A stretch of 64,000 nt of DNA, taken from assembly GCF_053078305.1 (NCBI RefSeq), contig NZ_CP166879.1; one strand, written 5' to 3'. The position numbers are program-made. How positions within the stretch are numbered: position 1 is the first letter of the stretch; the number at the start of each line of letters is the position of its first letter. Below, one piece after another: positions 21,001 to 24,000 of the stretch.

Positions 21001-24000
21001 AGCCCCAGTAAACGGGCCATCTGCGGATAGAAAACATTACGCGCAGGGTGAGCTGGCGCACATATATTATAGATGTGTCCGCCTTTAGGTGCCTGTAACA
21101 ACAGAGTGATAGCGCCAATAACATCTTCTAAATGGACTAAATTAACACCATGTTCACCATCAGGCGCGGTTTTTCCGGCAAAGAAGCGTCCGGGATGACG
21201 TCCCGGTCCGACCAGCCCCGCAAGACGCAGAATATCGACCGAAGTACCGGGTAAATTGTGCAGCCAGTCTTCGAGTTCTTCTAATACTCGTCCACTGTTG
21301 GTCACCGGATTACGCGGGGTGGTTTCTTTCACCGTGCCTTGCGCGTCGCCATAGACAGACGTTGAGCTGGTAAAAATAATTCGGGGAATACGATGGGCCA
21401 GCGCGCTATCCACTAACTCTTGTACCGCTTGTAAATAGAACTCATCGCCGGGGCCGCTACGACGTGCCGGAAGCGTAATGACCAGCGCGTCGGCATCCAT
21501 CAGGGCATCCAGATCGTCAGAATCGCAAACTAACTCAGGCTCCATGCGAAGCAGATAGCTATCAATGCCACTCATTCGGGCCGCTTCGACACCATCTTGT
21601 GTGGTTTTACTCCCGGTGACTTGCCAGCCTCGCGCTGAAAGTGACATCGCCAGCGGCATGCCTAACCACCCTAACCCGACAATTGCGACCTTTTTCATCC
21701 GTTATCTCCTGATACACCTTAGATCTATAAGGCTACGCTAGCGTATCAAAACTGACAATTCATTCTATGAATGAAATCGAAACTGTTAGCAAATATACCA
21801 TTGCCTGATGCGCTCCGCTTATCAGTCCTACAAAAACATCAATATATTGAATTTACGCAACATTTGTAGACCAGATAAGGCATTCACGCCGCATCCGGCA
21901 GGAACAAAGCCCACTTTAGTTACAGAACACAATGTTCTTGAGGGTTTTAAAGACATATTTTCACGATTTCTTTTCTAACGTAGTCACTCCAGGCCCCCTC
22001 CTTTCCCCGCTCATTCATTAAACAAATCCATTGCCATAAAATATATAAAAAAGCCCTTGCTTTCTAACGTGAAAGTGGTTTAGGTTAAAAGACATCAGTT
22101 GAATAAACATTCACAGAGACTTTTATGACACGCGTTCAATTTAAACACCACCATCATCACCATCATCCTGACTAGTCTTTCAGGCGATGTGTGCTGGAAG
22201 ACATTCAGATCTTCCAGTGGTGCATGAACGCATGAGAAAGCCCCCGGAAGATCACCTTCCGGGGGCTTTTTTATTGCGCGGTTGATAACGGTTCAGACAG
22301 GTTTAAAGAGGAATAAGAAAATGACAGACAACACTCGTTTACGCATAGCTATGCAGAAATCCGGCCGTTTAAGTGATGACTCACGCGAATTGCTGGCGCG
22401 CTGTGGCATTAAAATCAATCTTCACACCCAGCGCCTGATCGCGATGGCAGAAAACATGCCGATTGATATTCTGCGCGTGCGTGACGACGACATTCCCGGT
22501 CTGGTAATGGATGGCGTGGTAGACCTTGGGATTATCGGCGAAAACGTACTGGAAGAAGAACTGCTTAACCGCCGCGCCCAGGGTGAAGATCCGCGCTACT
22601 TTACCCTGCGTCGTCTGGATTTCGGCGGCTGCCGACTTTCACTGGCAACGCCGGTTGATGAAGCCTGGGACGGCCCACTCTCCTTAAACGGTAAACGTAT
22701 CGCCACCTCTTATCCTCACCTGCTCAAGCGTTATCTCGACCAGAAAGGTATCTCTTTTAAATCCTGCTTACTGAACGGTTCTGTTGAAGTCGCCCCGCGT
22801 GCCGGACTGGCGGATGCGATTTGCGATCTGGTTTCCACCGGTGCCACGCTGGAAGCAAACGGCCTGCGCGAAGTCGAAGTTATCTACCGCTCGAAAGCTT
22901 GCCTGATCCAGCGCGATGGTGAAATGGAAGAATCCAAACAGCAGCTGATCGACAAACTGCTGCCCCGTATTCAGGGTGTGATCCAGGCGCGCGAATCAAA
23001 ATACATCATGATGCACGCACCGACCGAACGTCTGGATGAAGTCATCGCCCTGCTGCCAGGTGCCGAACGCCCAACTATTCTACCGCTAGCGGGTGATCAA
23101 CAGCGCGTAGCGATGCACATGGTCAGTAGCGAAACCCTGTTCTGGGAAACGATGGAAAAACTGAAAGCGCTGGGTGCCAGTTCGATTCTGGTCCTGCCGA
23201 TTGAGAAGATGATGGAGTGATCGCCATGAGCTTTAACACAATCATTGACTGGAATAGCTGTACTGCGGAGCAACAACGCCAGCTGTTAATGCGCCCGGCG
23301 ATCTCCGCTTCTGAAAGCATTACCCGCACTGTTAACGATATTCTCGATAACGTGAAAGCACGCGGCGATGAGGCCCTGCGGGAATACAGCGCGAAGTTTG
23401 ATAAAACCACGGTTACCGCACTGAAGGTGTCTGCTGAGGAAATTGCCGCCGCTAGCGAACGCCTGAGCGACGAGCTAAAACAGGCGATGGCGGTGGCAGT
23501 AAAGAATATTGAAACCTTCCACACTGCGCAAAAACTGCTGCCGGTAGATGTAGAAACGCAGCCAGGCGTGCGTTGCCAGCAGGTCACGCGCCCGGTCGCT
23601 TCAGTTGGGTTGTATATTCCTGGCGGCTCCGCCCCGCTCTTCTCAACGGTTTTAATGCTGGCAACTCCGGCGCGTATTGCGGGCTGTAAAAAAGTGGTGC
23701 TGTGCTCACCGCCGCCGATTGCCGATGAGATCCTTTACGCGGCGCAGCTGTGCGGTGTGCAGGACGTGTTTAACGTCGGCGGCGCACAGGCCATTGCCGC
23801 GCTGGCGTTTGGTACGGAATCTGTGCCGAAAGTGGACAAAATCTTCGGGCCGGGTAACGCCTTTGTCACCGAAGCGAAACGTCAGGTGAGCCAGCGTCTG
23901 GACGGTGCGGCGATCGATATGCCCGCAGGCCCGTCGGAAGTGTTGGTCATTGCTGACAGCGGCGCTACGCCGGATTTCGTGGCTTCTGATTTGCTTTCTC

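What the first reader, a model, noticed from the sequence alone, without database searches (positions are those of the whole stretch)
21699..22124. yefM-yoeB toxin-antitoxin pair appears absent between yeeZ and hisL; REP elements occupy the site
K-12 carries yefM-yoeB (about 83 and 84 aa) between yeeZ and the his leader. In this window the 425-bp interval has no ORF of that size in any frame and instead contains REP sequences (21802..21902) followed by the his promoter and leader.
Basis: partly seen in the sequence, partly recalled or inferred. Interest (0 to 1): 0.4.

Follow-up and report, generated by a model that had tools for sequence, protein, structure and literature searches.

The report
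TA-less yeeZ–hisL spacer with REP pair
This E. coli strain carries the common version of the yeeZ–his spacer that lacks the yefM-yoeB toxin-antitoxin genes and holds a repetitive REP pair instead, an ordinary and already recognised difference between strains.

Summary
Between yeeZ (20874-21698, minus strand) and hisL (22125-22175) lie 426 bp with no ORF longer than 56 aa. No YefM or YoeB similarity exists anywhere in the 64-kb window. Two REPs sit at 21803-31 and 21866-99.

Compared with the K-12-type locus this is a replacement, not a simple deletion. The flanks are shared up to 21775 and from 21987. Here 211 bp (21776-21986, including a BIME-1-like REP pair) stand where K-12-type strains have 652 bp (yoeB, yefM and their promoter).

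Among 5,426 complete E. coli genomes, 4,212 carry the TA cassette and 1,196, including O157:H7, carry this 211-bp allele. The TA-less allele also occurs in E. albertii and two unnamed Escherichia species, at species-level divergence. The TA allele occurs in E. whittamii. All other enterobacterial genera sampled have a short spacer with neither element.

So the window holds one of two old alleles, not a recent loss. Variable presence of chromosomal TA modules in E. coli is already documented. Which allele came first is unresolved. One odd mosaic allele (strain HH97) hints at a decayed-TA origin but is unreliable. Interest is low.

The parts
20874..21698 (-). yeeZ (SDR-family oxidoreductase/epimerase), 274 aa
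   Evidence: ORF. Annotated as yeeZ in near-identical genomes.
21699..21775 (.). Left flank shared by all E. coli alleles (yeeZ 5' region). Ends in the palindrome ATTCATTC-TAT-GAATGAA at the left junction. CTGACAATTCAT and ATAAGGCTACGC are conserved across Enterobacteriaceae.
   Evidence: Identical in the window, the TA allele and O157. Outgroup alignment.
21776..21986 (.). Allele-specific 211-bp segment of the TA-less allele. It stands where the 652-bp yoeB-yefM cassette sits in K-12-type strains.
   Evidence: Junctions. At least 80% of the segment is present in 1,196 of 5,426 genomes. Orthologous copies in E. albertii and two Escherichia spp..
21803..21831 (+). Short z-type REP (palindromic unit), left arm of the BIME
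   Evidence: 2 mismatches to GCCTGATGCGCTACGCTTATCAGGCCTAC; 0 matches expected by chance.
21832..21865 (.). 34-bp L-type linker with core CAATATATTGAATTT. Matches the IHF consensus WATCAANNNNTTR at 12 of 13 positions (CATCAATATATTG).
   Evidence: The core is shared with BIME copies at ybbP/mnmH and torZ/cmoB. No strict consensus match. BIME-1 definition taken from PMC3333891.
21866..21899 (-). y-type REP, right arm of the BIME, inverted relative to the z REP (tail-to-tail)
   Evidence: 3 mismatches to the y consensus; 0 matches expected by chance. Agrees with the K-12 REP consensus in PMC2817692.
21903..21986 (.). Right-unique 84 bp of the TA-less allele, origin unknown
   Evidence: No significant similarity to the K-12-type cassette. 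No hit in true plasmids or in phages. 87-99% conserved in other Escherichia species.
21987..22044 (.). 58 bp shared by the TA and TA-less alleles but absent from all non-Escherichia genera sampled
22045..22124 (+). his promoter region (A-rich upstream tract, GCCCTTGCTTTC...TAGGTT) and 5' UTR, conserved across Enterobacteriaceae
   Evidence: Alignment with Citrobacter and Salmonella. The promoter assignment rests on established knowledge of the his operon and was not tested here.
22125..22175 (+). hisL leader peptide, MTRVQFKHHHHHHHPD (7 consecutive His codons)
   Evidence: Sequence. Annotated as hisL in near-identical genomes.
22151..22274 (+). His operon attenuator (Rfam RF00514)
   Evidence: 131.6 bits against a gathering score of 49, E = 4e-23.
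22321..23220 (+). hisG (ATP phosphoribosyltransferase)

Best explanation
The window carries the TA-less 'BIME allele' of the yeeZ-hisL intergenic region. This is one of two long-standing alleles in the genus Escherichia.

In this allele a 211-bp non-coding segment (21776-21986) lies between the divergent yeeZ and his promoters. It is made of 25 bp, a single BIME-1-like REP pair (short z REP, 34-bp L linker, inverted y REP) and 84 bp. The alternative K-12-type allele has, between exactly the same junctions, a 652-bp module: the yoeB and yefM genes, their autoregulated promoter, and about 80 bp more.

Consequences for this strain at this locus:
- There is no YoeB mRNA interferase or YefM antitoxin (shown).
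- yeeZ must be transcribed from its own promoter rather than by read-through from PyefM (inferred).
- The his promoter, leader peptide and attenuator are intact and unchanged (shown).

The REP pair most likely has no locus-specific role. By family resemblance it could bind IHF or gyrase (inferred, untested).

On origin, the whole roughly 269-bp block 21776-22044 is an Escherichia-specific insertion relative to other enterobacteria (shown). My preferred reading, at about 55%, is that the BIME allele is the older state in the genus. On that reading, a plasmid-type yefM-yoeB module later replaced its left 211 bp, and both alleles have since persisted or been exchanged by homologous recombination in the recombination-prone his/O-antigen region.
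For: Absence of TA genes. No YefM or YoeB similarity anywhere in the window and no ORF over 58 aa touching the interval.

Exact junctions. The flanks are shared up to 21775 and from 21987; 211 bp stand against 652 bp.

Population counts. The TA cassette is present in 4,212 of 5,426 complete E. coli genomes and never on plasmids. The 211-bp segment is present in 1,196 genomes, including O157:H7. The two counts sum to 5,408.

The BIME allele is orthologous in other species. In E. albertii the 211-bp segment is 88% identical, against yeeZ 92% and hisG 94%. It is also present in Escherichia sp. E1V33 and MOD1-EC7003.

The TA allele in E. whittamii. Coding sequence is 99.2% identical, but the non-coding upstream part is 93.8%, similar to the flanks at 93-95%. 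That pattern fits an old allele under purifying selection.

Outgroups. All 75 loci from non-Escherichia genera (Citrobacter, Salmonella, Enterobacter, Klebsiella, Kluyvera and others) have a short spacer with neither element (five of them read base by base).

The REP pair is genuine. Its architecture and linker core are shared with BIMEs at other loci and fit the BIME-1 definition in PMC3333891.

The TA module looks mobile. Plasmid-borne yefM-yoeB homologues of 82-86% identity match the cassette only from the yoeB stop to about 64 bp upstream of yefM.

Literature. Chromosomal TA modules are described as horizontally acquired and variably present in E. coli, and no TA system is shared by K-12, W, EDL933 and UTI89 (PMC5120126; PMC7167474).
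Against: Polarity is not established. If the BIME allele came first, the TA module had to replace 211 bp with its left end landing within a few bases of the left end of the earlier Escherichia-specific insertion. That coincidence would follow naturally if both alleles descend from a single insertion.

No empty-site allele was found in metagenome contigs.

E. fergusonii, E. marmotae and E. ruysiae were not recovered, so the ancestral state rests on few lineages.

The BIME lies between divergent promoters, whereas this class is described as lying at the 3' ends of transcription units (title of Boccard & Prentki 1993, cited in PMC3333891). That hints that a transcription unit once ended here.

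IHF binding and any effect on yeeZ or his expression are untested.

Whether the strain has yefM-yoeB elsewhere in its genome is unknown.
Confidence: 0.88

Rival explanations
1. The TA-less allele is a decayed relic. On this reading, one ancestral yefM-yoeB insertion in early Escherichia gave rise to both alleles. In the lineage leading to this window the toxin and antitoxin genes were deleted or eroded, and a BIME came to occupy the remains, in the way described for the decay of ccdO157.
For: Both alleles share the same left junction and the same 58-bp Escherichia-specific right flank. A single insertion explains this without coincidence.

The BIME sits where the 3' end of a yefM-yoeB transcript would be, which is the usual position for this class of repeat.

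Strain HH97 has a 649-bp spacer that is significantly similar both to the K-12 cassette (z = 16.9 over the yoeB 5' part) and to the window's BIME and right-unique part (z = 22.7; Smith-Waterman score 44 against a shuffle maximum of 28).
Against: Direct similarity between the window's 211 bp and the K-12-type cassette is not significant (z = 1.0 and z = 1.6-2.2). No operator-like TGTACA pair is present.

The only bridge, HH97, is unreliable for several reasons:
- It is a singleton among 5,426 genomes.
- Its ORFs are absent from a 15-billion-protein collection.
- An HH97-specific 24-nt word is absent from metagenome contigs.
- It is a fine-scale mosaic of the two alleles, with REP-like imprints at several places and a 100% K-12-like operator next to stretches of 66-77% identity.
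That pattern also fits a recombinant or a consensus artefact from mixed reads.

The K-12-type allele has no BIME between yoeB and yeeZ, so extra events are needed on this reading as well.
Confidence: 0.2
2. A recent, strain-specific deletion of yefM-yoeB from a K-12-like ancestor.
For: Only the bare fact that K-12 has the genes and this window does not.
Against: The same 211-bp allele, contiguous with its flanks, is present in about 1,190 complete genomes at 95-100% identity. It is also present in E. albertii and two other Escherichia species at species-level divergence. In addition, the 211 bp is absent from the TA allele, so a deletion alone cannot produce it.
Confidence: 0.01
3. The TA pair is not lost but relocated: this strain carries yefM-yoeB, or a close paralogue, elsewhere on its chromosome or on a plasmid.
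For: Plasmid-borne yefM-yoeB homologues of 74-86% identity exist in Enterobacteriaceae. Only 64 kb of this genome is visible.
Against: The K-12-type cassette was found only on chromosomes, with a median of one place per genome. Genomes with any cassette match (4,218) plus genomes with the BIME allele (1,196) do not exceed the total of 5,426, so co-occurrence is at most rare. Nothing was found in the window itself.
Confidence: 0.07

Closest known systems
yefM-yoeB type II toxin-antitoxin locus of E. coli K-12 (b2017/b4539), as a variably present chromosomal TA islet
   Same: Same chromosomal site and the same flanking genes and flanking sequence. yeeZ is 99.0% identical and the shared spacer parts are 98-100% identical to a TA-bearing allele.
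   Different: The two genes, their operator and about 80 bp more (652 bp in all) are missing, and 211 bp of unrelated sequence stands in their place.
BIME-1 / RIB-RIP elements of E. coli (z1 REP, L linker with IHF site, y REP, single copy)
   Same: Two inverted REPs placed tail-to-tail. The y REP matches the consensus. The long linker has the same conserved core as the copies at ybbP/mnmH and torZ/cmoB. It occurs as a single copy.
   Different: It lies between two divergent promoters instead of at the 3' end of a transcription unit. The IHF consensus is matched at 12 of 13 positions only. The z1 label for the short z REP rests on my memory of the nomenclature.
folA-apaH locus, where ccdO157 is present in some E. 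coli and K-12 has a 77-bp spacer (Mine et al. 2009, as cited in PMC7232551)
   Same: A chromosomal TA module that is present or absent between conserved core genes across E. coli lineages, with long-term coexistence of both states.
   Different: Here the TA-less state is not a short spacer. It is a different 211-bp segment with a REP pair, and decay intermediates are not securely documented.

Membership tests
YefM-YoeB (Phd/YefM antitoxin with YoeB/Txe toxin) type II TA module | Two small adjacent or overlapping ORFs of about 83 and 84 aa | tested here: not met
   The longest ORFs touching 21699-22124 are 58 aa (running in from yeeZ) and 56 aa.
YefM-YoeB (Phd/YefM antitoxin with YoeB/Txe toxin) type II TA module | Sequence similarity to YefM and YoeB | tested here: not met
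   tblastn against the whole window gives a best E-value of 0.87, and blastn of the cassette finds only chance words.
YefM-YoeB (Phd/YefM antitoxin with YoeB/Txe toxin) type II TA module | Paired TGTACA palindromes (operator) upstream of the antitoxin gene | tested here: not met
   TGTACA-N6-TGTACA gives 0 matches in the window with up to 2 mismatches. The motif is present in the K-12-type allele.
REP / BIME-1 | Two REPs in inverse orientation, each matching a y or z consensus and carrying the GTAG/CTAC tetranucleotide | tested here: met
   The z-type REP is at 21803-21831 (plus strand) and the y-type REP at 21866-21899 (minus strand). Chance expectation is 0. The y REP agrees with the K-12 consensus in PMC2817692.
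REP / BIME-1 | Single copy with a long, conserved L linker | tested here: met
   The 34-bp linker has the core CAATATATTGA(A/G)TT, shared with BIMEs at two other loci. The definition is from PMC3333891.
REP / BIME-1 | IHF binding site in the linker | tested here: inconclusive
   CATCAATATATTG matches WATCAANNNNTTR at 12 of 13 positions, and there is no strict match. Actual binding cannot be tested with these tools.
REP / BIME-1 | Location at the 3' end of a transcription unit | tested here: not met
   It lies between the divergently transcribed yeeZ and hisL. The compared copies lie between convergent genes.
His operon leader / attenuator (RF00514) | Covariance-model match above the gathering score, and a leader peptide with a run of His codons | tested here: met
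   131.6 bits against a gathering score of 49. hisL encodes 7 consecutive His codons.

The most novel reading that the evidence does not exclude
The yeeZ-hisL spacer may hold an ancient trans-species polymorphism in Escherichia whose TA-less allele is the eroded remnant of the same yefM-yoeB insertion that survives intact in K-12. On this reading a BIME spread into, or was converted onto, the decaying toxin-antitoxin genes, and HH97 would be a surviving intermediate. That would be a documented case of a REP element replacing a dying TA module in place.
Probability: 0.15. Interest if true: 0.4.

Novelty: already known. Interest (0 to 1): 0.15.

Why it matters
It matters little beyond bookkeeping. 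It tells an annotator that this strain, like O157:H7 and about 22% of sequenced E. coli, lacks the chromosomal YefM-YoeB module. Phenotypes attributed to YoeB in K-12, such as Lon-dependent mRNA cleavage, therefore do not apply, at least not through this locus. It also shows that yeeZ sits in a different promoter context.

The population picture is a tidy example of how chromosomal TA islets behave as accessory DNA in a recombination-prone region. Two alleles with identical junctions are both old enough to be shared with sister species. This fits what reviews already state.

Tried and rejected
1. A diverged duplicate of the his promoter. Three short direct repeats suggested that the right-unique 84 bp might be one. 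Local alignment was no better than shuffles (50 of 2,000) or genomic controls (61 of 2,818), so I rejected the idea.

2. HH97 as a bridge to prove a yefM-promoter relic. The window-to-HH97 similarity is significant. However, HH97 is a singleton mosaic of both alleles with no independent support, and direct window-to-K-12 similarity is not significant. I therefore downgraded it to a rival explanation.

3. Strain MEI4BO-21 as an Escherichia outgroup with an empty site. Its yeeZ is only 74% identical and it lacks yeeY, so that region is an import and is not informative.

4. A search for an empty-site allele in metagenome contigs found none.

5. A plasmid or phage origin for 21903-22044. The only hits were E. 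coli chromosomes mis-filed in the plasmid collection.

6. Terminal inverted or direct repeats as a transposition signature around the cassette. Only weak repeats were found, apart from an 11-bp palindrome across the right junction of the TA allele. No target-site duplication was seen.

7. REP annotation in the MG1655 record. This copy lists no repeat features, and the Boccard & Prentki 1993 and Ramisetty & Santhosh 2016 papers are not held.

8. Promoter scan of the interval. It found 3 sigma-70-like sites against 1.5 ± 1.1 expected, which is not informative. One site on the minus strand (-35 at 21789-21784, -10 at 21767-21762) straddles the left junction and could be a yeeZ promoter.

Full report
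**Observation**

The window shows yeeY (19899-20849, minus strand), yeeZ (20874-21698, minus strand), a 426-bp spacer (21699-22124), hisL (22125-22175, MTRVQFKHHHHHHHPD) and hisG from 22321. Rfam places the His attenuator at 22151-22274, at 131.6 bits against a gathering score of 49. It finds nothing else credible between 21000 and 23000.

No ORF touching the spacer exceeds 58 aa. I took YefM (83 aa) and YoeB (84 aa) from a TA-bearing E. coli and ran tblastn against all 64 kb. The best E-value was 0.87. blastn of the whole cassette found only chance words elsewhere in the window.

The paired TGTACA operator motif of yefM is absent, even allowing 2 mismatches. A y-type REP (21866-21899, minus strand) and a short z-type REP (21803-21831, plus strand) match their consensus sequences with 3 and 2 mismatches. 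None is expected by chance. The MG1655 record confirms the order yeeZ-yoeB-yefM-hisL in K-12.

**Anatomy relative to the TA-bearing allele**

I aligned the window with a TA-bearing genome and with O157:H7. The sequence is identical up to window position 21775, and shared again from 21987. Between these junctions the window has 211 bp and the TA allele has 652 bp. The 652 bp begin 5 nt before the yoeB stop codon and run to 144 bp upstream of yefM. The two inserts are unrelated in sequence. So this is a replacement polymorphism, not an empty site.

The 211 bp consist of:
- about 25 bp of unique sequence;
- a REP pair, 21801-21902;
- 84 bp of unique sequence.

The REP pair has a 34-bp linker whose core, CAATATATTGAATTT, recurs in BIMEs between ybbP and mnmH and between torZ and cmoB in other strains. 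A single copy, a long conserved linker and a z-plus-y composition fit the BIME-1 definition given in PMC3333891. The linker matches the IHF consensus at 12 of 13 positions only.

Unlike the compared copies, this BIME lies between divergent promoters.

**Population and phylogenetic distribution**

Among 5,426 complete E. coli genomes, 4,212 hold at least 80% of the TA cassette. All copies are chromosomal, with a median of one per genome. Another 1,196 hold at least 80% of the 211-bp segment, and 1,193 hold the whole TA-less arrangement contiguously, O157:H7 included. Together these account for 5,408 genomes.

A scan of one genome per species with YeeZ returned 80 loci. All 75 non-Escherichia loci (Citrobacter, Salmonella, Enterobacter, Klebsiella, Kluyvera and others) have hisL about 180-215 bp from yeeZ, with no YefM or YoeB. 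Five read base by base, including a divergent 'E. coli' import, also lack window positions 21987-22044. The whole block 21776-22044 is therefore an Escherichia-specific insertion.

The TA-less allele is present, orthologous and complete, in three other species:
- E. albertii: the 211 bp are 88% identical, the 58-bp flank 88%, yeeZ 92% and hisG 94%;
- Escherichia sp. E1V33;
- Escherichia sp. MOD1-EC7003.

E. whittamii has the TA allele. Its coding sequence is 99.2% identical to E. coli, but the upstream non-coding part is 93.8%, like the flanks. Both alleles are thus old and shared across species, and the TA genes are under purifying selection where present.

**Origin**

Plasmid-borne yefM-yoeB homologues in Citrobacter, Salmonella and E. 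marmotae (82-86% identity) match the cassette only from the yoeB stop to about 64 bp upstream of yefM. That is the 'promoter plus two ORFs, no terminator' unit that Ramisetty and co-workers describe as the horizontally moving TA module (PMC5120126).

I favour, at about 55%, the view that the BIME allele is the older state and the TA module replaced its left 211 bp. The reasons are that the deepest lineage sampled, E. albertii, has the BIME allele at vertical-looking divergence, and that TA modules are known to be mobile.

The weakness of this view is a coincidence. The left end of the replacement falls within a few bases of the left end of the older Escherichia-specific insertion. That junction sits at the foot of the palindrome ATTCATTC-TAT-GAATGAA. 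In the TA allele an 11-bp palindrome also straddles the right junction. Both could mark fragile or recombinogenic sites, but this is speculation.

**The HH97 lead**

One genome, HH97, has a 649-bp spacer with no annotated gene. It begins like the window (24 bp plus the head of the z REP). It then runs through sequence that is 72-79% identical to the yoeB 5' part and to yefM. Next comes a yefM operator 100% identical to K-12, and it ends at the same right junction.

Its stretches are significantly similar both to the K-12 cassette and to the window's BIME and right-unique part. If genuine, it would link the two alleles and suggest that the TA-less allele is a decayed TA locus.

Several points argue for caution:
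- It is a singleton.
- Its ORFs are not in a 15-billion-protein collection.
- A 24-nt word specific to it is absent from metagenome contigs.
- No closer TA relative exists on plasmids.
- A two-parent mosaic model shows fine-scale interleaving of both alleles, even inside the yefM remnant: a score of 164 against 152.5 ± 1.0 with a shuffled second parent.

This pattern fits a recombinant or a consensus built from mixed reads at least as well as it fits an evolutionary intermediate. Direct window-to-K-12 similarity is not significant. I therefore keep the relic model as a rival, at about 20%.

**Function**

Shown: this locus encodes no YoeB or YefM, and the his promoter region, leader peptide and attenuator are intact and essentially identical to those of TA-bearing strains.

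Inferred: yeeZ cannot receive read-through transcription from PyefM, as has been suggested for K-12 (PMC5120126). It must use its own promoter in or near the shared 77 bp. A weak sigma-70-like site on the minus strand straddles the left junction.

Inferred by family resemblance only: the BIME-1-like element may bind IHF.

**Known or new**

Variable presence of chromosomal type II TA modules among E. coli lineages, and their integration between core genes, is established. A review states that no TA system is shared by K-12, W, EDL933 and UTI89 (PMC7167474). Ramisetty & Santhosh 2016 and Fiedoruk et al. 2015 are cited for horizontal transfer and for uneven phylogroup distribution. The analogous ccd locus at folA-apaH is described in PMC7232551.

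The finding is a correct reading of an ordinary, already recognised polymorphism.

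Noticed in passing
L089 2352-2786 (NZ_CP116409.1, E. coli HH97, 2161544-2161978): A unique third allele of the yeeZ-hisL spacer. It is a 435-bp fine-scale mosaic of the BIME allele and a copy of yoeB/yefM about 75% identical to K-12, with no ORF and a K-12-identical operator. It could be a real recombinant or intermediate, or a mixed-read consensus artefact.
   Followed up: partly
L001 2414-2436 (TA-bearing allele, right junction): An 11-bp palindrome, GCTTAGAGGAC-A-GTCCTCTTAGC, straddles the right junction of the yefM-yoeB cassette. One arm is cassette-specific and the other lies in the flank shared with the TA-less allele. It may be an integration signature.
   Followed up: no
L004 (NZ_CM149565.1, 'E. 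coli' MEI4BO-21): The region from plaP to the his operon is highly divergent (yeeZ 74% and hisG 85% identical to the window). It lacks yeeY and has a 178-bp yeeZ-hisL spacer like that of other genera. This looks like an imported segment.
   Followed up: partly
Plasmid collection hits H101-H103 and H141-H143: Several 'plasmid' records of 0.39-4.9 Mb in the plasmid collection carry the chromosomal yeeZ-his region. They are evidently chromosomes or chromosome fragments filed as plasmids.
   Followed up: no
window 52808-52841 and 57403-57436 (minus strand): Two further y-type REPs, with 0 and 2 mismatches to the consensus, lie elsewhere in the window.
   Followed up: no
window 34164-34238 and 56497-56571: Two places gave identical chance-level tblastn alignments to YefM (same identity, length and score). 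This implies a repeated coding segment about 22 kb apart, possibly paralogous sugar-nucleotide genes of the O-antigen and colanic-acid clusters.
   Followed up: no
window 21753-21764 and 21729-21740: CTGACAATTCAT and ATAAGGCTACGC, upstream of yeeZ, are conserved in every enterobacterial genus aligned. They are candidates for the yeeZ promoter or a regulator site, for example for the adjacent LysR-type YeeY.
   Followed up: no
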